Shown here in pieces: positions 1-8,277 of a DNA stretch of 8,277 bases; the first letter of the stretch is position 1; every line of letters starts with the position of its first letter. Position numbers and translations under genes: made by a program. Under the pieces are notes generated by a model that was not told the origin of the DNA, did no database searches, and worked only from the letters and a program-made list of their open reading frames with translations. Source of the stretch: a virus (lineage: Duplodnaviria; Heunggongvirae; Uroviricota; Caudoviricetes); IMG/VR virus record IMGVR_UViG_2534681993_000039, positions 1 through 8,277 of that record; one strand, given 5' to 3'.

Positions 1-240
1 TCAAACTTTTTTTGAGCTGATTTGTGTCACAGGTAACATCTCATCATCAGCCCATGCGGCCAGTCGGTAAGCCTCTGCCGGATTCATTTTCAGAAGTGCC
101 AGCCCGGCCAGAAAAGCCACGCGTTGGCCGCTTTTGCGGGCTTCCGGTGTAAGGCTGTCCAGCCAGGCGCATGCTTCGCTTTCGTTCTTGACGGCCGCAG
201 GCTTCAGATAGAAACTTATCCGTCTGGTTGGAGTCGTCAT
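1..240 (-). CDS. ParR-like ribbon-helix-helix centromere-binding protein, short form (79 aa)
   Basis: ATG at 240..238 preceded by AAGGAG (rc of 248-253), 7 nt spacing; stop TGA is rc of 1-3. The N-terminal 55 aa (RRISFYLKP...LDSLTPEARKSGQRVAFLAGLALL) resemble my recollection of plasmid R1 ParR (RRTIAFKLNP...LDSIPQGERSRLNRAALTAGLALY). Sits 4 nt after the parM stop, the usual parM-parR arrangement. The 124-aa ORF-track version from 375 overlaps parM and has no homology in the extra part. Confidence 0.6.
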   Translation of the reverse strand: MTTPTRRISFYLKPAAVKNESEACAWLDSLTPEARKSGQRVAFLAGLALLKMNPAEAYRLAAWADDEMLPVTQISSKKV

Positions 241-244
241 TGGT

Positions 245-1204
245 TTACTCCTTGTCCATTGCGTACAGCCCATTAACCAGAGCAAACTGTGGCACCCCGT
301 CCGCGATGAAAGTCGCATTAACTCCGCAGGCTTCGCGGATAGCGGGTGCCACAATCTCCGCCCCTCCACCGACAACCATCACCCGCCCGTAACCCGAAAA
401 ACCCGCCAGCGCGCGGATCACGCGTTGTTTCAGTGTTTCTTCCTTTTCACGAATTACCGCCATCAGGCTGGCGTAATGCGCGTCATTGTGGATGTGCTGG
501 CGCAGCCAGGCTTCATCATGGCGATGTTCGATAATGGTATTGGCGATGTGGTGACTGGTGCGCATACCGTTAGTGGCCATCACCGACAGTACGGCATCGG
601 CCATCAGAGAAACGCCCACGTGTGGATCGCAAAACACCTGGCTGATACCTGCCAGTTGCCCCTGAACCTTTGCCACATCCAGCGTGGTTCCGCCCAAATC
701 CACAATCAGCAGGGATTCAAACGGACTCATGTCAGCCAGTGCCTTAAAGCCAGCCGGAATGGATTCAGGCATAACCCGTACGTTACGGATAGTGAATGCT
801 TCGCCGTTCTGGTACTCCACCGGGCGCATGACGTTCGCTTTTTTGCGGTTGATGTTGGCCATGTCCGGCTGTGCGTTTGTATCGAAATACTCGCTCAGTG
901 GCAGGGTGACAACCACATCCACTTCCTGTGGTGTGATGCCTGATTTGACCAGCGCGTGATGAATGGCAATTATATTCACATCGCTGTACTGGTATTGCGT
1001 GTCGGTCGTCTGGACAAAGCGATCGCTGACCGGATCAAAACCATAGCGCACGCCATCAAGCATGTAGTTCGCGGGCTGCGTGCCACCGAACGGCGCAGAC
1101 CATTCCGACTTGAAGCTGTTCGGGCTGATGGCGTTGCGGCGTTCGCCGTTCTCAGTCCATGCCAGCTTGATGTTGGTGGAGCCGTCGTCGATACAAATTT
1201 TCAT
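245..1204 (-). CDS. parM: ParM/StbA-family actin-like segregation ATPase (319 aa)
   Basis: Full-length ORF; ATG at 1204..1202 with AAGGA 8 nt upstream on the - strand. N-terminus MKICIDDGSTNIKLAW, internal VMPESIPAG and LLIVDLGGTTLDV, and C-terminal VMVVGGGAE match the actin-fold phosphate/adenosine motifs and align along the whole length with plasmid R1 ParM as I recall it. Confidence 0.85.
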   Translation of the reverse strand: MKICIDDGSTNIKLAWTENGERRNAISPNSFKSEWSAPFGGTQPANYMLDGVRYGFDPVSDRFVQTTDTQYQYSDVNIIAIHHALVKSGITPQEVDVVVTLPLSEYFDTNAQPDMANINRKKANVMRPVEYQNGEAFTIRNVRVMPESIPAGFKALADMSPFESLLIVDLGGTTLDVAKVQGQLAGISQVFCDPHVGVSLMADAVLSVMATNGMRTSHHIANTIIEHRHDEAWLRQHIHNDAHYASLMAVIREKEETLKQRVIRALAGFSGYGRVMVVGGGAEIVAPAIREACGVNATFIADGVPQFALVNGLYAMDKE

Positions 1205-1222
1205 GTCGCTTTTCCTTATGTT

Positions 1223-1256
1223 GATTAATTAATCGGTTACAGGATTTTTAAATCCC
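1223..1256. promoter_or_regulatory. palindromic elements in the 76-bp A-parM spacer
   Basis: Perfect 12-bp palindrome GATTAATTAATC at 1223-1234; inverted repeat GGATTT/AAATCC at 1242-1255. They lie 10-30 bp upstream of the parM ribosome-binding site. Confidence 0.3.
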
Positions 1257-1280
1257 GCTTTTGCCTGTTTTGTGCGCGCT

Positions 1281-4103
1281 TCATATATCGCGGCACGTTT
1301 TTTGCTCATTTACGGGATTTGTGAGTCCCGTTTCTGTCTGTTTTTTGTTTCCACTGGTCAGGCTACCCCGCAGCAGGTCTGCTTTGCGGTGGGCGCGTTC
1401 AGTGGTTTCACTGATTCTCTGTGCGTGCTCTGCGTCACGGATGGCGCGCAGCATGTCAGAAAGCACGGTAACGGGGGTTTTCATGGTGTTCTGGTCCTGC
1501 TGAAGTGTGGATGCCAGGTGTGCGGCGGCTTCGGGGTCTGATGCCCCCAGCTGTTCCAGATAGCTGGCGACCGGGTTATGGCGGATCTCCGTGCTGCTTA
1601 CGCCGTGATTACGGCTCAGGCGCTGCCAGAGTTGCGTGATTCGGCTGTCCGGGCGGGTATCTGGTTTGCGTACAATTTCAAATCCCTGCGGTGCAATGAT
1701 GCTGCCGTCAACGTACAGACTGCCGCCCCGTAACAGGTGCTGCATCTGCTGTTCACCGATATGCAGGCCGAGAGATTCAGCAGACTCCCGCCATTCTTTA
1801 GCGAGTAACTCGTGGTTATCAGGCAAAGGCCGTGGCTGTTTGCGGCTCTGTGTCCAGTTCTGCATTTCATCACTGCTGTTTTTTGCCTGTTTGTCACGCA
1901 GCGAACGCATCAGCGCCCGGCGTTCGTGCCGTTTCAGTGAGCGCATCCATTCGTTCACTTCAACGCCGTCAGGGAGTTGCGGCCACGGTGTTGTCCGTTC
2001 TTCCGGCTGTTCTGTCCCGTTGTTGTTCGTTTCCTGTACACGGGGACAGTTATTGCCACGAGTCCAAGGGGCGGCAGGGCCGCCCTGAAGGTCAAAACCA
2101 TTTTCGCGGGCGCTGTCTTCCGCTTCCGGTTTACGTCTTATCAGCTTCCAGTTATCCGGATGTGTGCACACACGGGAAGACTCCCCGATGAGTGGTGACC
2201 AGATCCCGTAAATCTGTACATTCTGTTCGCCGTAATCGTTCGGCTCATCTGCGAGGTCGTAGGCGGTGCGAATCAGGTAGTCTTTGCGTGGAACAAGTAC
2301 GCCGCCCTGTTTTTCAATGTAGGAGGCAAAACACCCGGCATCAGCGGCAGCGAGCACTGCATCCATTGCGTCATCCTTCAGCCGTTGCGGGCCTTCCTGG
2401 TTGCGTGCCATCTGGTTGGCAAGGCGGCGCAGTTCACGCCACACCTGACGGGAGGGGATGCCAAAGAACTGGAACTGGCGGACCCGGTGAAGGCGCGCCC
2501 AGCCGATGGCGCGCTCCACGCTCTCGGCCATTGATTTTCCGGTTTCGTGGTCAACGCGTGGCTTGCCCGTTTTCGGGTCGATACCATCCACGGCGCGGCT
2601 GTCCAGGTTCTTTCCGATGTAGGTGGCGATGTAGCTGGTTGGCGTGCCTTTTGAGCCGTCGACATACTCCACCTTAAAGCGCGGAGTAATATCATTGCCC
2701 AGCTCGTGGCGGTCTTCCTGAATGGCAATATCGCGGGTATGGGACACAATGGTGTCGATTTCTTCCGGATGTGCAAAGACCATCATATGCCAGTGCACGG
2801 TGCCGTCATGATGAGGCTCCACCGTGCGGATGCCATACCAGCGCAGGCCGTCGCGGTTCAGTTTTTTGCGGACCGCCGCAAAAAACGTGTTAACCAGGTA
2901 ATCGCTGGAGTCGCGCATTGTGGCCCCGTTCCATTTGGGATTTGGATGACCGTTCTCCGTTGTGGCGTGGTATTTTGACGGGCAGGTGACAGTCAGAAAC
3001 ACCGCTTTGTCGCCACGGGCTTCGGCCAGAAGTTCCAGCCCCTTCATGGTGGCCATCATTTCTGCCTTACGGTGAACCGGGTTACTTACTCCCGCGTAAT
3101 ACACCGTCTCGAGATCAATCGTGAACCCGTCTTCATTTTCCAGCATGAAACTTTTCAGGAAATCGCGTGTTTTCTCGCGCTGTGCGCGAAACTCGCTTAA
3201 CGCGTCCTGGCTCAGATAGGGTGATGTTTTTCTGGAAACCAGACAGGCGGCGCGGAGTTGTTCTTCCCGCCACTCGCAACGTAACAGCCATAGTTTGCGT
3301 TTCCACCATTCCGCACAGGTCAGGCGAAGGATTGCGCCCGGCAGCAGCTCCGTGTCCGGTTCGTTCCTCCGGTCTTTGTCTGTTGTCAGAGCGTCATAAT
3401 GTGGAGGCATGGCGTGCAGGTGTAACGCCATGCGGGCCAGCATCTGATACGCCTTCAGCGTTACATCCATGGTCAGCTCGCCATCGGTCGCGCCAAAGCC
3501 ATCGCAGAGTTTTTCAAAAGTGCCACTGAACATCGCCGCCGTCATGGTGGCCAGCGTCTGTATCTGGTGTTTGTTGAGCTGCGGCAGGTAAAGCAAATCG
3601 TCCAGGCGTTCGCGTCCGGCAAGGGAGCGATAACCCGGTGTCAGCCAGCGGTGATCGGTGCGCTCCAGACGTTCGAATATTTTGCGCAGGGTCCCACGCG
3701 CATAGCGTTCTGCCTGCCTGGCGTTTTTTCCTTTCTGACGATCGGCTTCCTGTTTTTTGCGCAGGAAGGAGAGGTGGCGAATAAGCGGATCGCGCAGATA
3801 GGACGGCAGCAGGCGCAGCGAGGCCATGGCTTCATCCACCGCGCAGCGTGCCTGTTTTCTGGCGTCTCCTGCCAGTGTGATGGTTTTGTCCTGTTTTTCC
3901 TGTGCGTCCAGGCTTTTATTAATCAGGTTGCCCAGCGGCGTGGCGGAGAACGCCGCATCAGCCATTTCCTGGCGGCGCTCGTTCTCTGCCCGGTAGGCAT
4001 CCAGCCAGGAGGAAAGCGCGGATTCAGGAGCGGGGATCCCCGTTCCTTCACGCCCCACTGCGTGGCGCGGTTGTTGCCAGTCCCTGATGTACTCTGCCGT
4101 CAT
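1281..4103 (-). CDS. GpA-family (P2 A / phiX174 A superfamily) rolling-circle replication initiator endonuclease, 940 aa
   Basis: Single 2.8-kb ORF. HUH motif VEPHHDGTVHWHMMVF (HWH codons at 2795..2787) and tyrosine pair YIATYIGKNLD (Y codons at 2633..2631 and 2621..2619) as in phiX174 A and P2 A; also FLTVTCPSKYH upstream. Start ATG 4103..4101 lies 6 nt after the stop of the upstream gene. Confidence 0.9.
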   Translation of the reverse strand: MTAEYIRDWQQPRHAVGREGTGIPAPESALSSWLDAYRAENERRQEMADAAFSATPLGNLINKSLDAQEKQDKTITLAGDARKQARCAVDEAMASLRLLPSYLRDPLIRHLSFLRKKQEADRQKGKNARQAERYARGTLRKIFERLERTDHRWLTPGYRSLAGRERLDDLLYLPQLNKHQIQTLATMTAAMFSGTFEKLCDGFGATDGELTMDVTLKAYQMLARMALHLHAMPPHYDALTTDKDRRNEPDTELLPGAILRLTCAEWWKRKLWLLRCEWREEQLRAACLVSRKTSPYLSQDALSEFRAQREKTRDFLKSFMLENEDGFTIDLETVYYAGVSNPVHRKAEMMATMKGLELLAEARGDKAVFLTVTCPSKYHATTENGHPNPKWNGATMRDSSDYLVNTFFAAVRKKLNRDGLRWYGIRTVEPHHDGTVHWHMMVFAHPEEIDTIVSHTRDIAIQEDRHELGNDITPRFKVEYVDGSKGTPTSYIATYIGKNLDSRAVDGIDPKTGKPRVDHETGKSMAESVERAIGWARLHRVRQFQFFGIPSRQVWRELRRLANQMARNQEGPQRLKDDAMDAVLAAADAGCFASYIEKQGGVLVPRKDYLIRTAYDLADEPNDYGEQNVQIYGIWSPLIGESSRVCTHPDNWKLIRRKPEAEDSARENGFDLQGGPAAPWTRGNNCPRVQETNNNGTEQPEERTTPWPQLPDGVEVNEWMRSLKRHERRALMRSLRDKQAKNSSDEMQNWTQSRKQPRPLPDNHELLAKEWRESAESLGLHIGEQQMQHLLRGGSLYVDGSIIAPQGFEIVRKPDTRPDSRITQLWQRLSRNHGVSSTEIRHNPVASYLEQLGASDPEAAAHLASTLQQDQNTMKTPVTVLSDMLRAIRDAEHAQRISETTERAHRKADLLRGSLTSGNKKQTETGLTNPVNEQKTCRDI

Positions 4104-4109
4104 AGTGAT

Positions 4110-4475
4110 TTACTTCGTCATGCCATTCAGGGTGTCGCGGCAGACTGTAGCCAGCCGCTGAATTTCCAGCACGGTGTCTTCTGTGTCGGCATGGCGATGT
4201 GTGATGCGGATGCTGTCGGCAATCACATCGACGATTGCAGAGGATGGGCGCTGGTAAATGCCAACAACGGACGGGGTGCCACCTTCAATGCGGTAAAGCC
4301 TGTAATTTCCCTCGTGGCTGTCAATCATGTAGCGACCATCAATAACAATCTTTCCGTCAGCGAGCTGCGGTACAGGCAGGGATTTCAGGTACATGTCATA
4401 ACGTTCCCGCACGCGAACGGCAAGATCACGCTCTGTGTTGAGCAGGTATTCAAGAAAGTCGTTGGCGAGAATCAT
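4110..4475 (-). CDS. hypothetical early protein (121 aa), translationally coupled to the replication gene
   Basis: ATG 4475..4473 with AAGAGGA 8 nt upstream (rc of 4476-4492); stop TAA 6 nt before the A start. No family recognised. Confidence 0.6.
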   Translation of the reverse strand: MILANDFLEYLLNTERDLAVRVRERYDMYLKSLPVPQLADGKIVIDGRYMIDSHEGNYRLYRIEGGTPSVVGIYQRPSSAIVDVIADSIRITHRHADTEDTVLEIQRLATVCRDTLNGMTK

Positions 4476-4616
4476 TGCGGCAATCCTCTTGTTACAGATG
4501 TGCGAAGGCCTCCCGCCACAAGGTGCAGGAAAGGCCCGGAACAGGAATTAATGGAGTTTGTTTTGCTGCCGGATGAGCTGCTGAAGCCCGACGTGGTTTC
4601 CGGCAGTTGGAGGTGC

Positions 4617-4862
4617 TCATGCTCTGATTTCCCTCAGTAGCTGGTTGAACATCTGGGTTAGTGGGTTGCTACACCCAAACGGCATCGGGTTTACCTGATA
4701 AGAAAAGCGACCGCCTGTTTTGCGCTCTTTTCTTATGACTGAACCGCTGCGCCAGAGACGGCGTAGCTCCACATTAATGGTTGTGGTTGGTGTATTCAGT
4801 GCTGCGGCGATTTCTCCACCGCTACAACCCGGATTGGCAGCGATGTAGTCCAGAATGGTCAT
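4617..4862 (-). CDS. small putative winged-helix DNA-binding protein (81 aa)
   Basis: ATG 4862..4860 overlaps the upstream stop (ATGA). ILDYIAANPGCSGGEIAAALN...INVELRRLWRSGSVIRKERKTGGRFSYQ looks like a helix-turn-helix followed by a beta-hairpin wing; fold-level inference only. Confidence 0.5.
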   Translation of the reverse strand: MTILDYIAANPGCSGGEIAAALNTPTTTINVELRRLWRSGSVIRKERKTGGRFSYQVNPMPFGCSNPLTQMFNQLLREIRA

Positions 4863-5062
4863 CTGCGTGATTCCTGTACCTGTCTGATAAGATTCACCTG
4901 CACCACGTTGGTGGCGCAGAAGTAAGTGCCGTCAGTGAGATAGATGTGATGTGCATCCTTTTCTGAACTGTGTTTGTCGATTGTGGTAATCAGGCGTTCG
5001 TCAACTTCGTATTCACGTCCTCTGGAGGTGAAACGAACGACAGGAAAATGCTTAATTGCCAT
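4859..5062 (-). CDS. hypothetical protein (67 aa)
   Basis: ATG 5062..5060 preceded by a strong AAGGAGG (rc of 5063-5078); the ORF-track 84-aa form starts further upstream without a ribosome-binding site. Overlaps the downstream gene start by 4 nt. Confidence 0.5.
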   Translation of the reverse strand: MAIKHFPVVRFTSRGREYEVDERLITTIDKHSSEKDAHHIYLTDGTYFCATNVVQVNLIRQVQESRR

Positions 5063-5156
5063 TACGCCTCCTTGGCGTGTGCGAATACCTCCGCGAATGC
5101 GGATTGTTTTCACATTTTCTTATTTAACCTGGGGGCTTATTTGCGCGGTTATTCTT

Positions 5157-5186
5157 CAGTGAAAAAGCGTTCAATCTTTTTTACTG
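5157..5186. repeat. A/T-rich inverted repeat in the 195-bp intergenic gap
   Basis: CAGTGAAAAAG (5157-5167), 8-nt spacer, CTTTTTTACTG (5176-5186); arms match 10 of 11. Confidence 0.35.
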
Positions 5187-5258
5187 AATTAATAATTCGC
5201 ATAATCCCAATGGCGCAGACCACCGAAATAATCAGAACAAGCCATGAGATAAATATAC

Positions 5259-5501
5259 TCATGCGATATTTCCCAGCTTATACGGTTCAATATGTTCCCC
5301 GCATTCTGCGGCACAGATCAGCTCGGAAAGTTCGTTAAGTGCATCCAGGTCATCAGCGTAAAAAGCCACGTCATACAGACTTCGGATTGCTCTGGTCAAT
5401 GAGTCACGGGCCGCACGTTCAGCATGAGCGCCTGATGCACTTAAGCGAAAATAAAAACGCTCAAGTGCTTTGTTAATGAGAGTTTTATATTCTTTGCCCA
5501 T
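5259..5501 (-). CDS. hypothetical protein (80 aa)
   Basis: ATG 5501..5499 (the ORF-track first codon is GTG one codon upstream); AGGG 8 nt upstream; begins 11 nt after the stop of the preceding gene. No family recognised. Confidence 0.45.
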   Translation of the reverse strand: MGKEYKTLINKALERFYFRLSASGAHAERAARDSLTRAIRSLYDVAFYADDLDALNELSELICAAECGEHIEPYKLGNIA

Positions 5502-5512
5502 CACAACGCCCT

Positions 5513-5800
5513 TTAATCTGCTTTCTGTATTTCAGCTTCTGAATCCATACAAATAATTTCGATATAGGGTTCATCGCCATTAACCTGGCGTGCCTTTTCA
5601 GCTTCGCTAATGATTTCTCGTACGGTCTGGTACGGAAGTTCCACAAGCAGTCGCGTGCCGTTCAGATAAACGTAAGTGGCTTCGTCGGCTCCGTTTTTAC
5701 CCGCCGGAGTCACTCCGTCAATAGCGGATGCACGTAATAACAGTTCACCGCGACAATCAATAAAACGGATAAATACACCTTGTGCATGGTCTTTGGTCAT
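5513..5800 (-). CDS. hypothetical protein (95 aa)
   Basis: Internal ATG 5800..5798 with AGGTG ribosome-binding site (rc of 5801-5815) chosen over the ORF-track start at 5914, which would overlap the upstream gene by about 100 nt. No family recognised. Confidence 0.5.
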   Translation of the reverse strand: MTKDHAQGVFIRFIDCRGELLLRASAIDGVTPAGKNGADEATYVYLNGTRLLVELPYQTVREIISEAEKARQVNGDEPYIEIICMDSEAEIQKAD

Positions 5801-5810
5801 AAAGCACCTG

Positions 5811-6149
5811 TTATAAATCAGCCTGTTTAATAAAACTTTGCCCGCGAAGCAGACGATCAACCGTGCGAAGTGCTTCGTATAATGTGAAATCCTGCCCGAA
5901 CTGATTGTCACCACAGCTCAATGCAAAAATGCGGTTTCCGGTAAACGGATTGCGTGGGCATTTGTGGATCACGATTCCAGCTTTCTCAATCAGCCAGGCG
6001 TGCTCGCCGATTTGTTTTACTGGGTAGCCATCCGGCGTTGCGTGTGTATCACTCAGGCTGTAGCGGATGTTGCTGCGTGATGCACTGGTAGTGAAACGGT
6101 TAGCGTGGCGTTCTGTTCCGGTACGAAAATTACGGCGTTGCTTCAGCAT
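5811..6149 (-). CDS. hypothetical early protein (112 aa)
   Basis: ATG 6149..6147 with GAGGTG 7 nt upstream; lies immediately downstream of the cox-like gene. No family recognised. Confidence 0.55.
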   Translation of the reverse strand: MLKQRRNFRTGTERHANRFTTSASRSNIRYSLSDTHATPDGYPVKQIGEHAWLIEKAGIVIHKCPRNPFTGNRIFALSCGDNQFGQDFTLYEALRTVDRLLRGQSFIKQADL

Positions 6150-6163
6150 AAAATGACACCTCG

Positions 6164-6442
6164 TTATTTTGTCATCTGCACGTATTTTTCTGCGCTCCTG
6201 ATTGTTTTCAGGAAAAGAGCGAAGAGATTTACTGTGCGTCTTGAGTTCTTTTCATCCTGGTTGATGGGAATTGAACCTCTGTCAGCCTGTCTTTTCACTG
6301 TGTTAACAGCTTGGTTGGTACGCTTTGCGTAATCTTTCAGGCTTTCTTCAAGTACTGGTAACCCATGCTCATCGCGGTAGGGATAGAACGCTGCTAAACG
6401 CTCAAAGTCTGCCTGTTCGTGTGTGTTCAGGACTTTTGCCAT
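6164..6442 (-). CDS. small DNA-binding protein in the Cox/Apl position (putative lytic-switch regulator or excisionase), 92 aa
   Basis: First gene of the - strand operon, divergent from the repressor gene. DYAKRTNQAVNTVKRQADRGSIP resembles a helix-turn-helix. No clear similarity to P2 Cox as I recall it, so the call rests on position and size. Confidence 0.5.
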   Translation of the reverse strand: MAKVLNTHEQADFERLAAFYPYRDEHGLPVLEESLKDYAKRTNQAVNTVKRQADRGSIPINQDEKNSRRTVNLFALFLKTIRSAEKYVQMTK

Positions 6443-6538
6443 GTGTGATAACCTGCGCTATCTGTGGTTGTTTGTGACTCGGTGTACTTATAAGTACACC
6501 TTGTGCGCAAGCTTAGTGTACTTATAGGAACACTGTCA
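6443..6538. promoter_or_regulatory. divergent switch/operator region between the cox-like and C-like genes
   Basis: 96-bp intergenic region. Perfect 20-bp palindrome GGTGTACTTATAAGTACACC at 6481-6500; related imperfect palindrome AGTGTACTTATAGGAACACT at 6515-6534; both share the direct repeat GTGTACTTATA, centres about 34 bp apart. Candidate - strand promoter: -35 TTGACA (rc of 6534-6539), -10 TAAGCT (rc of 6510-6515). Candidate + strand promoter: -35 TTGTGC 6501-6506, -10 TATAGG 6523-6528. Confidence 0.5.
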
Positions 6539-6847
6539 ATGCTTATCGGTGAAAAAATTAGAGTGATTCGTGAATCAGAGGATTTAACGCGCGAAGAATT
6601 TTGCGGCCTGATTGATGTGCCTATCGGCACTTTGCGTCGTTATGAAACGGGGCGGATTGAAAACATAGGGGGCGAAGTGCTTATCAAGATTGTTAATCAC
6701 CCTCGCTTTTTTAAGTACATGAATTGGCTTATGACGGGAAAAACAAATGAGGCTGCTGGGCAGATCAGTCCGTCTCTCTCCCCTGATGGGCCAAAAAGCA
6801 CATCGCCTTCTCAAAAATCCCGCAAGACTGGTACACAGCCCGGCTAA
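6539..6847 (+). CDS. P2 C-like immunity repressor (102 aa)
   Basis: GEKIRVIRESEDLTREEFCGLIDVPIGTLRRYETGR...PRFFKYMNWLMTGKT...GQISPSL parallels P2 C as I recall it (GEKI, VP.GTL..YE.GR, KY..W.MT, GQI.P.L). ATG 6539 chosen; the in-frame GTG at 6503 is an alternative. Followed by int on the same strand, as in P2. Confidence 0.7.
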   Translation: MLIGEKIRVIRESEDLTREEFCGLIDVPIGTLRRYETGRIENIGGEVLIKIVNHPRFFKYMNWLMTGKTNEAAGQISPSLSPDGPKSTSPSQKSRKTGTQPG

Positions 6848-6853
6848 TCATGG

Positions 6854-6888
6854 AACGCTGGGGGCATGGTGGTCTTGTAACGCTGGGG
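6854..6888 (+). repeat. 10-bp direct repeat AACGCTGGGG x2 in the C-int spacer
   Basis: Exact copies at 6854-6863 and 6879-6888; the second ends 8 nt before the int ATG and may supply its ribosome-binding site. Confidence 0.4.
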
Positions 6889-6896
6889 TTTCACGA

Positions 6897-7871
6897 ATGA
6901 GCATAAAATCAATTCCGGGAGGGTATCTTCTTGACATGCGCCCTGAGGGGCGTAAAGGCAAACGCATTCGCAAAAAATTTAAAACGAAATCGGATGCAGT
7001 TTTATATGAGCGGTGGGTGCTGGCGCAACAGCATAACAATGAGTGGAAAGGAAACTCCATTGATCGCCGTCCGCTGTCAGTGCTTATTGACTTGTGGTGG
7101 AAATACCACGGCCAGCTAATGAAGTCAGGGCATAACATGCGCCTTAAATTGCTGCGCTTGAGTGAGGCAATGGATGACCCGTGCGTGCATAAACTTAATA
7201 CAACGATGCTCACCGAGCTACGTGTGTCCAGGATAGAGCAGGGGATACAGCCCAGCACCATAAATCGAGAGATTGGGGCGTTAAGCGCGATGTTTACCGC
7301 ACTCATCTCATCCGGCCATTTTCTTAACGATAACCCCGTTCAAGGCCTTAAAGGAATGAAGGTTAACGAGCGCGAAATGGGATATCTGAGTAAGTCTGAA
7401 TGTGTTCAGTTGCTGGATGCACTGGCTGAAAATCCCGATGAACGGCTGGCTGTCGAAATCCTTCTGTCGACCGGGGCGCGATGGGGCGAGGTAGCGGCAC
7501 TGGAGCAGCGCCGTGTTCTTCATTGTCGAATCACTTTTTCAAAAACGAAGAACAGCAAAAACCGTACCGTTCCTATTTCTGAAAGCCTGTTTGAAAAGAT
7601 CAAAAAACGGGGCGGGAAACTGGTGTTTCCGACGCTGGATTATCCATTGGTTCGCGATGTCATCAAAACGGTCGCACCAGATGTTCCTGACGGCCAGGCT
7701 GTTCATGCGCTGCGCCACACCTTCGCCAGTCATTTCATGATGAACGGCGGCAATATTCTGACGCTCCAGAAAATTCTGGGGCACGCAAAGATTCAGACAA
7801 CGATGATTTATGCCCATCTTGCGCCGGATTACTTGCAGGATGCGGTGAGATTTAATCCTATTGCTGGGTAA
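6897..7871 (+). CDS. int: P2-like tyrosine integrase (325 aa)
   Basis: N-terminus MSIKSIPGGYLLDMRPEGRKGKRIRKKF and C-terminal catalytic region HALRHTFASHFMMNGGNILTLQKILGHAKIQTTMIYAHL (R, H-x-x-R, H, Y) follow P2 Int closely as I recall it. Start set at ATG 6897; the ORF-track start at 6747 overlaps the C gene and precedes the region of homology. Confidence 0.9.
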   Translation: MSIKSIPGGYLLDMRPEGRKGKRIRKKFKTKSDAVLYERWVLAQQHNNEWKGNSIDRRPLSVLIDLWWKYHGQLMKSGHNMRLKLLRLSEAMDDPCVHKLNTTMLTELRVSRIEQGIQPSTINREIGALSAMFTALISSGHFLNDNPVQGLKGMKVNEREMGYLSKSECVQLLDALAENPDERLAVEILLSTGARWGEVAALEQRRVLHCRITFSKTKNSKNRTVPISESLFEKIKKRGGKLVFPTLDYPLVRDVIKTVAPDVPDGQAVHALRHTFASHFMMNGGNILTLQKILGHAKIQTTMIYAHLAPDYLQDAVRFNPIAG

Positions 7872-7881
7872 GGAGGATGTT

Positions 7882-8277
7882 GTGGAAAAAACAGTTAATA
7901 GCGATTTGCATTTAGGTCAGTACTGGAGAATAGACATTGTATGCGATCCAGAACTTCGAGATGAGGTTGAGCAATATTTTTCTCTACACGATGTTGGTTT
8001 TAGCAAAATTGAAGTTTTTTCCGTCGAAAATCCATATAAACTTGCTCTGTTCTTTGATTTCGCGAAGAAGGGTGTGGAGGTTGCAAAAGCCATTATGGGA
8101 CTCTTAGACCGAAATGATATTGAAATAACGATGTATCGTGCTACGGACAGTAGCCCGCAGTCTGTAAAAAGCATCAAATTGCGTAAGTCTGAAGACGTAG
8201 AGAAATGTAAAGATTTGCTTAGTACGTGTGTCGCAATTGGCGTTCAACGAAATAAGGAAAAAGAGGGGAGCGAATGA
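7882..8277 (+). CDS. hypothetical AT-rich protein (131 aa) translationally coupled to int
   Basis: AGGAGG at 7871-7876 overlaps the int stop codon (TAA 7869-7871); GTG start at 7882, 5 nt downstream, in frame with the ORF-track reading. GC about 40% by hand count against 55-65% in int and A. No family recognised. Confidence 0.55.
   Translation: MEKTVNSDLHLGQYWRIDIVCDPELRDEVEQYFSLHDVGFSKIEVFSVENPYKLALFFDFAKKGVEVAKAIMGLLDRNDIEITMYRATDSSPQSVKSIKLRKSEDVEKCKDLLSTCVAIGVQRNKEKEGSE

What the first reader, a model, noticed from the sequence alone, without database searches (positions are those of the whole stretch)
1..240. ParR-like partner is about one third shorter than canonical ParR
Seen: homology to ParR begins at the ATG at 240 and the protein ends after 79 aa. 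Established, as I recall: R1 ParR is about 117 aa and its C-terminal tail contacts the ParM filament. Inference: this protein keeps the ribbon-helix-helix DNA-binding part but has a shortened or different C-terminal tail (AEAYRLAAWADDEMLPVTQISSKKV), so it may act mainly as a DNA-binding regulator or adaptor, or couple to ParM differently.
Basis: partly seen in the sequence, partly recalled or inferred. Interest (0 to 1): 0.4.

Follow-up and report, generated by a model that had tools for sequence, protein, structure and literature searches.

The report
Frameshift-truncated prophage ParR gene
The "short ParR" is an ordinary 103-residue prophage partition adaptor cut to 79 residues by one extra A in a run of A's; the missing ParM-binding tail is still encoded just past the window edge, so this is not a new kind of ParR.

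Summary
Window 240..1 (-) is a 79-codon ORF ending at a TGA at 3..1. It matches Pfam PF10784 (StbB/ParR) at E=6e-24 and lies 4 nt downstream of an R1-type parM.

The shortness is not a property of the protein family. The window has A7 (coding strand, window 13..7) where every other copy examined has A6. With A6 the gene encodes 103 aa (WP_000211277.1). The source contig (E. coli O26:H11 CVM9942, AJVW01000523.1) still carries the lost tail, FEAQSAPVAKITSQMAGNIRALFPE*, intact in the +1 frame.

The exact 79-aa protein occurs on one contig in a 15-billion-protein collection; the 103-aa form occurs on at least 1000. No complete E. coli genome and no IMG/VR contig has A7.

The lost tail holds the family-wide C-terminal motif (T-[RK]-x-N-A-x-x-[LM]-F). 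In R1 ParR (ETKKNAMKLIN) this motif lies within the 17-residue peptide crystallised in ParM.

So the window shows a frameshifted copy of a known P88-like (Xuanwuvirus) prophage ParR. It is either a homopolymer sequencing error 84-90 nt from a contig end (favoured, about 60%) or a strain-specific knockout. Low interest.

The parts
1..240 (-). parR ORF as written in the window: 79 codons plus TGA. Residues 1-78 are identical to the 103-aa P88-type prophage ParR (WP_000211277.1). Residue 79 (V) and the stop result from the frameshift.
7..13 (-). Homopolymer run of A7 on the coding strand (T7 on +), in codons 76-78 (TCA AAA AAA). All other copies have A6 (TCA AAA AAG TTT GAA...). It is the only run of 7 or more in the window.
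1..3 (-). Premature TGA created by the +1 base. In the A6 allele these bases belong to codons 79/80 (TTT GAA).
245..1204 (-). parM, 319 aa. Full-length homologue of R1 ParM (Pfam StbA_N + ParM C-terminal domain; PDB 1mwk/4a62, E about 1e-92 over residues 2-316).
248..252 (-). AGGAG ribosome-binding site for parR, overlapping the end of parM (parM stop TAA at 247..245).
   Evidence: read directly from the sequence
1239..1257 (-). Candidate parC/operator site 1: imperfect palindrome CGGGATTTAAAAATCCTGT, in the gpA-parM intergenic region. It lies inside the 38-nt direct repeat 1237-1274. Function is inferred, not tested.
1312..1330 (-). Candidate parC/operator site 2: CGGGACTCACAAATCCCGT, inside the last codons of the gpA-like gene and inside the 38-nt direct repeat 1310-1347. 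It lies 73 nt from site 1. Function is inferred.

Best explanation
Window 240..1 (-) is a copy of the 103-residue ParR (StbB-family centromere-binding adaptor) of a P88-like, P2-family (Xuanwuvirus) prophage integrated next to btuC. One extra A in an A6 run shifts the frame after Lys78 and gives Val79-stop. The intact protein has three parts. The first is an N-terminal ribbon-helix-helix-type DNA-binding and dimerisation domain (about residues 6-60). The second is a variable, disordered linker (about 61-86). The third is a C-terminal amphipathic helix (87-100) carrying the family motif ...N-I-R-A-L-F-P-E. By homology with R1 ParR, this helix inserts into the hydrophobic cleft of ParM and couples parC-bound ParR to the growing filament end. 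The 24 lost codons are still present, unmutated, in the +1 frame immediately beyond window position 1. The short length is therefore a single-base lesion in one deposited assembly, not a ParR variant with a different design. I cannot decide whether the extra A is a base-calling or assembly error (favoured, about 60%: homopolymer, 84-90 nt from a contig end, unique among thousands of copies) or a real strain-specific mutation (about 40%). The confidence given here is for the core claim that this is a frameshifted copy of a normal 103-aa ParR. Shown: the indel, the intact out-of-frame tail, its uniqueness, and conservation of the motif and its alignment with the R1 ParM-binding peptide. Inferred: that the P88-type tail actually binds this ParM, and that the two palindromes are parC.
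For: A6 versus A7. H1 (NZ_CP027591) differs from window 1-2140 only by the extra base, and its gene is annotated as 103 aa. DEC9B differs from the whole 8277-nt window by 3 SNPs plus this one indel. The source contig AJVW01000523.1 encodes FEAQSAPVAKITSQMAGNIRALFPE* in the +1 frame directly after the run. Uniqueness. The exact 79-aa protein occurs on 1 contig (EIL32858.1, CVM9942), the exact 103-aa protein on at least 1000. Of 167 complete genomes matching an 87-nt A7 probe, none has A7. No complete genome matches window 1-400 perfectly, and every row spanning the run covers 399 nt. In IMG/VR the A7 33-mer gives 0 hits and the A6 32-mer 34 hits. Phage P88 gp18 is 103 aa. All P88-type clusters are 101-107 aa. 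Tail function. The AF2 model gives helices 14-29, 32-52 and 54-60, low confidence at 67-85, and a helix at 87-100. In a 16-member family alignment NIRALFPE is in register with R1 NAMKLIN and with TRxNAxxLFP of other members, and N96 is invariant. The motif is found in the last 30 residues of 27 of 41 family representatives, against 1.8 +/- 1.3 in shuffled tails. R1 ParR's C-terminal 17 residues were crystallised in ParM between subdomains IA and IIA (PMC3794156). The conserved ParR tails mediate ParM binding (PMC5016525). Deleting the C-terminal helix of CorR abolishes CorM recruitment (bioRxiv 10.1101/2025.06.27.661541). The partner ParM is a full-length R1-type ParM.
Against: No raw reads were available, so error and real mutation cannot be separated. 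The 10.3 kb of the contig that I could read has no other indel against close relatives, so the assembly is not visibly riddled with homopolymer errors. Binding of the P88-type tail to its ParM was not tested; the tools offer no complex prediction. The AF2 monomer model is of modest quality (mean pLDDT 66.6, pTM 0.40) and gave no significant PDB fold match. A first alignment placed the P88-type C-terminus on an internal R1 helix (NILRSLFPK). That placement was overturned only after more diverse family members were added.
Confidence: 0.93

Rival explanations
1. The extra A is a genuine mutation in strain CVM9942 (slipped-strand insertion in the A6 run). This is nested within the core claim and is the alternative to the sequencing-error branch. 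The prophage then makes a 79-aa ParR that still dimerises, binds parC and represses the parMR promoter, but cannot recruit ParM. The partition system would be dead, which costs an integrated prophage nothing.
For: The indel sits in a mutational hot-spot type of sequence. The window also carries 3 real-looking SNPs against its closest complete relative, so some divergence exists. There are no other indels in 10.3 kb of the contig, so the assembly looks clean. Other frameshifted or truncated variants of this gene exist in databases (P0019, P0022, P0027, P0058). C-terminally truncated ParR homologues lose motor binding but keep their other activity (CorR).
Against: It is seen in one draft assembly only, against at least 1000 contigs with the intact form. 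None of the complete genomes has it. It lies 84-90 nt from a contig end, where consensus quality is usually lowest. The downstream tail shows no secondary decay, although little time may have passed.
Confidence: 0.37
2. One reading: this is a naturally short ParR class that keeps the RHH domain but has a different or shortened tail. It would act mainly as a DNA-binding regulator, or couple to ParM in another way.
For: The ORF as written is 79 aa and lacks the C-terminal motif. The genuine P88-type protein (103 aa) is also shorter than R1 ParR (117 aa) and the family median (126 aa), because it lacks the internal alpha4 helix of the cap.
Against: All relatives are 101-107 aa and end in the conserved N-I-x-x-[LF]-F-P-E motif. 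The 79-aa form is unique to one contig. It differs from the 103-aa form only by a 1-nt homopolymer indel, with the tail intact out of frame.
Confidence: 0.02
3. The A7 run is a programmed recoding site. Transcriptional slippage or a +1 ribosomal frameshift would yield both a 79-aa repressor-only form and a full-length adaptor from one gene.
For: Runs of A are known slippage sites, and the tail is intact in the +1 frame.
Against: A7 is absent from every other copy. A programmed site would be conserved. A run of 7 A is short for efficient transcriptional slippage (my own knowledge, not tested here).
Confidence: 0.01

Closest known systems
ParR of Escherichia phage P88 / Xuanwuvirus prophages (P88 gp18 YP_009113061.1; RefSeq WP_000211277.1 'plasmid partitioning/stability family protein')
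   Same: Residues 1-78 are identical to WP_000211277.1. The gene order is the same: gpA-like replication endonuclease, parM, parR, then variable cargo and the portal gene. The upstream palindromes are the same.
   Different: The window copy has A7 instead of A6. It therefore ends at residue 79 and lacks the last 25 residues of the 103-aa protein.
ParR (StbB) of plasmid R1/NR1, 117 aa, type II ParMRC partition system
   Same: Same Pfam family (PF10784). It is 33% identical over the N-terminal 61 residues. It sits downstream of a closely related ParM (E about 1e-92). The C-terminal motif ETKK-NAMKLI-N is homologous to P88-type xxxx-NIRALF-PE.
   Different: R1 ParR has an extra internal helix (TFSDIVNILRSLFP, residues 68-82) that the P88 type lacks. 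R1 parC is ten 11-bp iterons (PMC3794156 Fig. 1 legend), whereas here only two 19-nt palindromes were found. R1 is a plasmid; this system is almost always chromosomal, inside a prophage (1449 of 1451 places).
pB171 / pSK41 ParR (solved structures; RHH + helical cap + conserved disordered tail)
   Same: General architecture as described in the review PMC5016525: N-terminal RHH dimer, with C-terminal tails that bind ParM.
   Different: There is no detectable sequence match to any PDB chain and no significant Foldseek match for the monomer model. The relation is by architecture only.
CorR of Anabaena (chromosomal ParR homologue)
   Same: A C-terminal alpha-helix is required to recruit the actin-like partner, and deleting it (residues 150-162) abolishes recruitment. 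This is an experimental analogue of what the frameshift would do.
   Different: CorR binds membranes through an N-terminal amphipathic helix and controls cell shape rather than DNA segregation. It is not a close sequence relative.

Membership tests
ParR/StbB, Pfam PF10784 (Plasmid_stab_B) | Sequence match to the family profile above the curated threshold | tested here: met
   84.1 bits against a cut-off of 25, E=6.2e-24, residues 6-71 on profile positions 1-66 of 72.
ParR of a type II (ParMRC) partition system | Encoded directly downstream of, and co-oriented with, an actin-like ParM | tested here: met
   parM lies at 1204..245 (-) and parR starts at 240, with its RBS overlapping the parM stop. 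ParM matches R1 ParM at E about 1e-92 over its full length.
ParR of a type II (ParMRC) partition system | N-terminal ribbon-helix-helix DNA-binding dimer | tested here: inconclusive
   Homology to the R1 ParR N-terminus is clear (33% identity, E=8e-9). The AF2 monomer model gives helices 14-29, 32-52 and 54-60 but no strand, as expected without the dimer partner. Foldseek against the PDB found nothing significant.
ParR of a type II (ParMRC) partition system | Conserved C-terminal peptide or helix that binds ParM | tested here: not met
   The motif is absent from the 79-aa ORF as written. It is met by the A6 allele and is present in the +1 frame on the source contig...TSQMAGNIRALFPE aligns with R1 ...ETKKNAMKLIN. 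Actual binding to ParM was not tested.
ParR of a type II (ParMRC) partition system | Repeated centromere (parC) upstream of parM that ParR binds and through which it autoregulates | tested here: inconclusive
   Two 19-nt palindromes lie 73 nt apart and flank the gpA stop/parM upstream region (2 matches against 0.01 expected). They are conserved in P88 and in a subtype with 52% ParR identity. No R1-like 11-bp iteron arrays were found. Binding cannot be tested here.
P88-type (Xuanwuvirus) prophage ParR, 101-107 aa | Near-identity to WP_000211277.1 and the prophage context gpA-parM-parR next to a P2-type morphogenesis module | tested here: met
   Residues 1-78 are identical. The window is 8277 nt against 8276 nt in DEC9B, with 3 SNPs and 1 indel. 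Context is shown.
Stand-alone short RHH regulator (naturally tail-less ParR-like protein) | Relatives share the short length and lack the C-terminal motor-binding motif | tested here: not met
   All full-length relatives are 101-149 aa, and most carry the C-terminal motif. The 79-aa form occurs on one contig only.

The most novel reading that the evidence does not exclude
Setting the frameshift aside, the intact 103-aa P88-type ParR is a naturally minimised ParR: RHH, one helix, a disordered linker and the ParM-binding motif, without the alpha4 cap helix present in R1 and most relatives. It appears to pair with two palindromic sites rather than iteron arrays. Its complete ParMRC module sits in an integrating P2-like prophage found on the chromosome of about a quarter of complete E. 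coli genomes. The module might segregate excised or replicating phage genomes, or support a plasmid-like carrier state. I found no study of this role in the literature I searched. If the A7 allele is real, it would be a natural ParM-uncoupled, repressor-only mutant of that system.
Probability: 0.25. Interest if true: 0.4.

Novelty: already known. Interest (0 to 1): 0.08.

Why it matters
The main value is as a caution. An apparently unusual domain architecture (a ParR without its motor-binding tail) came from one extra base in a homopolymer, 84-90 nt from a contig end of a 2012 draft assembly. The window boundary hid the out-of-frame tail. The gene itself is a routinely annotated member of a known family. 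There are two minor positive outcomes. First, the C-terminal ParM-binding motif of the StbB/ParR family (T-[RK]-x-N-A-x-x-[LM]-F) is conserved from R1 to P88-type prophage ParRs. Second, P88-like prophages carry a compact, conserved ParMRC module whose role in an integrating phage has apparently not been examined.

Tried and rejected
1. A 61-nt A7 probe against E. coli genomes found nothing, probably because no 28-nt seed remained on either side of the run. It was replaced by an 87-nt probe.
2. The first MAFFT alignments (A1 and A2) placed the P88-type C-terminus on R1's internal helix NILRSLFPK. That suggested even the 103-aa protein might lack an R1-like tail. I rejected this after a profile search of 1.84 billion representatives supplied members carrying both the internal helix and the C-terminal TRxNAxxLFP motif. 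The 16-member alignment A4 then put NIRALFPE in register with R1 NAMKLIN.
3. A sequence search of the PDB with the 103-aa protein gave only a chance hit, E=1.1.
4. Foldseek of the AF2 model against the PDB gave nothing below E=2.9.
5. NCBIfam has no model that the protein matches.
6. I tried to read more of the CVM9942 contig by looking up a neighbouring protein, to count other homopolymer indels. The protein is too common and a different genome was returned. The 1963 extra bases already held showed no indel.
7. The papers on CVM9942 gave no sequencing-platform information.
8. Moller-Jensen 2007 and Gayathri 2012 are not held in the library. Their content is cited second-hand through PMC3794156 and PMC5016525.
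9. The long repetitive proteins P0150 and P0195 in the profile search are low-complexity false positives.
10. The promoter and terminator scan of 1-1500 gave nothing useful for the parM upstream region.

Full report
**What is in the window**

On the minus strand, an ATG at 240..238 is preceded by AGGAG at 252..248. It opens a 79-codon ORF that ends at a TGA at 3..1. Its product is MTTPTRRISFYLKPAAVKNESEACAWLDSLTPEARKSGQRVAFLAGLALLKMNPAEAYRLAAWADDEMLPVTQISSKKV.

The product matches Pfam PF10784 (Plasmid_stab_B, the StbB/ParR family) at 84.1 bits, E=6.2e-24, covering profile positions 1-66 of 72. It aligns with the N-terminal 61 residues of R1 ParR at 33% identity, E=8e-9.

Four bases upstream lies a 319-aa ParM (1204..245). 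It matches both Pfam ParM domains and the solved R1 ParM structures over its full length, E about 1e-92.

R1 ParR is 117 aa; I verified the sequence at 100% identity in more than 1000 plasmids. Its C-terminal 17 residues were crystallised bound to ParM between subdomains IA and IIA (PDB 4A62, as described in PMC3794156).

**Why the ORF is short**

A megablast of window 1-1300 finds the locus in 1303 of 5426 complete E. coli genomes, almost always on the chromosome. All 15 listed hits map 1300 query bases onto 1299 record bases.

In the best hit (NZ_CP027591) the gene is annotated as a 103-aa 'plasmid partitioning/stability family protein', WP_000211277.1. Reading both sequences shows a single difference:
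- The window has CAGCTC-AAAAAAA-GTTTGA, with A7 at window 13..7.
- The relative has CAGCTC-AAAAAA-GTTTGAAGC....

With A6 the frame runs TCA AAA AAG TTT GAA ... and ends 24 codons later, giving ...ISSKKFEAQSAPVAKITSQMAGNIRALFPE*. With A7 it reads TCA AAA AAA GTT TGA.

Window 1-2140 is otherwise identical to that genome. The complete genome of strain DEC9B differs from the whole 8277-nt window by only three SNPs and this one indel. The T7/A7 run is the only homopolymer of 7 or more in the window.

**The missing tail is just outside the window**

An exact-sequence look-up shows the 79-aa protein on a single contig among about 15 billion proteins. That record is EIL32858.1, E. coli O26:H11 str. 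CVM9942, contig AJVW01000523.1. The exact 103-aa protein is on at least 1000 contigs.

That contig (locus L002) extends 77 nt beyond the window's first base. In the +1 frame it encodes FEAQSAPVAKITSQMAGNIRALFPE followed by a stop, identical to the normal tail. The A7 run lies 84-90 nt from the end of the contig.

**How rare is A7**

- Of 167 complete genomes matching an 87-nt probe built with A7, none matches perfectly. All are at 98.9%, which is one gap.
- No complete genome matches window 1-400 perfectly, and every listed hit that spans the run covers 399 bases.
- In IMG/VR the A7 33-mer has 0 exact matches and the A6 32-mer has 34.
- Phage P88 itself has a 312-nt (103-aa) gene.
- All protein clusters of this subtype are 101-107 aa.

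**What the tail is**

AlphaFold2 on a 99%-identical 103-aa protein, with a 37-sequence alignment, gives the following:
- helices at 14-29, 32-52 and 54-60;
- a low-confidence stretch (pLDDT below 50 at 67-85);
- a C-terminal helix at 87-100 (pLDDT about 70).

The model overall is modest: mean pLDDT 66.6, pTM 0.40.

Across the subtype the N-terminal 65 residues and the last dozen residues (xQ[ML][AK]xNIxx[LF]FPE) are conserved, while the linker is hypervariable.

My first alignments placed this C-terminal motif on an internal R1 segment, NILRSLFPK. That would have meant even the 103-aa protein lacks an R1-type tail. A profile search of 1.84 billion representative proteins returned 64 relatives. 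The 41 representatives of 100-200 aa that I analysed have a median length of 126 aa. Their sequences show two separate conserved elements:
- an internal helix, TT[FI]xDIxxLLxSV[FL]P, which is R1 residues 68-82;
- an extreme C-terminal motif, [ET]-T-[RK]-x-N-A-x-x-[LM]-F-[PG].

R1's ETKKNAMKLIN is an instance of the second element.

With 16 diverse members, MAFFT puts P88-type NIRALFPE in register with R1 NAMKLIN, with an invariant Asn. It also shows that the P88 type simply lacks the internal helix. The core motif N-x3-[LMFIV]-[FLIM] occurs in the last 30 residues of 27 of 41 representatives. In 1000 shuffles of those tails the mean is 1.8 +/- 1.3 and the maximum is 7.

R1's last 17 residues are the crystallised ParM-binding peptide. 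ParR tails are described as conserved and as mediating ParM binding (PMC5016525). Removing the C-terminal helix of the ParR homologue CorR abolishes recruitment of its actin-like partner. The 24 residues lost here are therefore, by homology, the ParM-coupling element. Direct binding was not tested.

**Mechanism**

For the intact system I infer the standard ParMRC mechanism:
1. ParR dimers bind a centromere or operator upstream of parM and repress the operon.
2. Their flexible tails capture the growing end of ParM filaments.
3. The filaments push DNA copies apart.

The only repeated elements I found upstream of parM are two 19-nt imperfect palindromes, at 1239-1257 and 1312-1330 (2 matches against 0.01 expected by chance). 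Each lies inside a 38-nt direct repeat, and the two are 73 nt apart. One is in the intergenic region and the other is inside the last codons of the gpA-like gene. They are conserved in phage P88 and in a subtype whose ParR is only 52% identical. They are candidates for parC, not shown to be.

The 79-aa product would keep the DNA-binding and dimerisation part. If it is real, it should still bind and repress but be unable to recruit ParM, giving a partition-null, repressor-only protein.

**Error or mutation?**

I cannot decide this without reads.

For an artefact:
- the indel is a +1 in a homopolymer;
- it is unique among thousands of copies;
- it lies 84-90 nt from a contig end;
- it sits at the point where many relatives' alignments start to diverge (query position 17), and some O26 genomes carry two such prophages. 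This is a setting in which consensus errors are common.

For a real mutation:
- the other 10.3 kb of the contig that I could read has no indel against close relatives;
- three SNPs show some genuine divergence;
- other frameshifted variants of this gene exist in databases.

I put it at about 60:40 for an artefact.

**Context and comparison**

The window is the early/replication arm of a P2-family prophage of the genus Xuanwuvirus (P88-like), integrated next to btuC. It contains an integrase, a repressor region, a 940-aa gpA-like replication endonuclease, parM and parR. In relatives these are followed by variable cargo and the portal/terminase/capsid module.

The gene is routinely annotated, so nothing about it is new. 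The closest characterised relative is R1 ParR. They share the family, the partner and the C-terminal motif. The P88 type differs in lacking the alpha4 helix, in its candidate centromere, and in residing in an integrating phage rather than a plasmid.

**Verdict**

The cause, however, is a one-base frameshift in a single assembly.
- Novelty: already known.
- Interest: low.

Noticed in passing
window 1-8277; L001 (NZ_CP027591 2109707-2135005): The whole window is the early arm of a P88-like (Xuanwuvirus, P2-family) prophage integrated beside btuC. Its parM-parR module is present in 1303 of 5426 complete E. coli genomes, and 1449 of 1451 places are chromosomal. I found no paper on why an integrating P2-like phage keeps a complete R1-type plasmid-partition system.
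   Followed up: partly
window 1237-1347: There are two 38-nt direct repeats (79% identical), each containing a 19-nt imperfect palindrome (GGGAyT...AATCCy). They straddle the stop codon of the gpA-like gene, just upstream of parM. The half-sites are conserved while the central bases vary between prophage subtypes. They may be the parC/operator and are unlike the 11-bp iteron arrays of R1.
   Followed up: partly
window 1281-4103 (-): The replication endonuclease is 940 aa, but the Pfam Phage_GPA domain covers only residues 179-503. About 440 C-terminal residues have no family match, and the last codons overlap one of the candidate ParR sites.
   Followed up: no
P88-type ParR family (alignment A4): The intact 103-aa P88-type ParR lacks the internal helix (R1 residues 68-82, TT[FI]xDIxxLLxSV[FL]P) that most StbB-family members have. 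In its place is a hypervariable Pro/Gln/Thr-rich linker. It is a naturally minimised ParR that still ends in the ParM-binding motif.
   Followed up: partly
window 1 and 8277: Both window edges coincide with stop codons of annotated genes: the parR TGA at 1-3 and the stop of a 131-aa hypothetical protein at 8275-8277. Cutting at the called gene end is what hid the out-of-frame tail.
   Followed up: yes
window about 4471-4590 (-): Relatives annotate a truncated 'ash family protein' pseudogene here, between the 121-aa hypothetical gene and the MarR-like gene.
   Followed up: no
window positions 1-16 versus relatives: Many related prophages align to the window only from position 17 or 21 onward, so their sequences diverge in the bases that include the A run. 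The linker-coding part of parR is a recombination or variability boundary between prophage subtypes. Some O26 genomes carry two such prophages, which may explain why the draft contig ends 77 nt further on.
   Followed up: no
P0150 (2045 aa), P0195 (762 aa), P0201 (961 aa): Long, highly repetitive low-complexity proteins scored as multi-copy hits to the ParR profile (up to E=2e-30). On inspection they are tandem-repeat translations with chance similarity to ...SFYL.../...FLAGLAL..., so they are false positives.
   Followed up: yes
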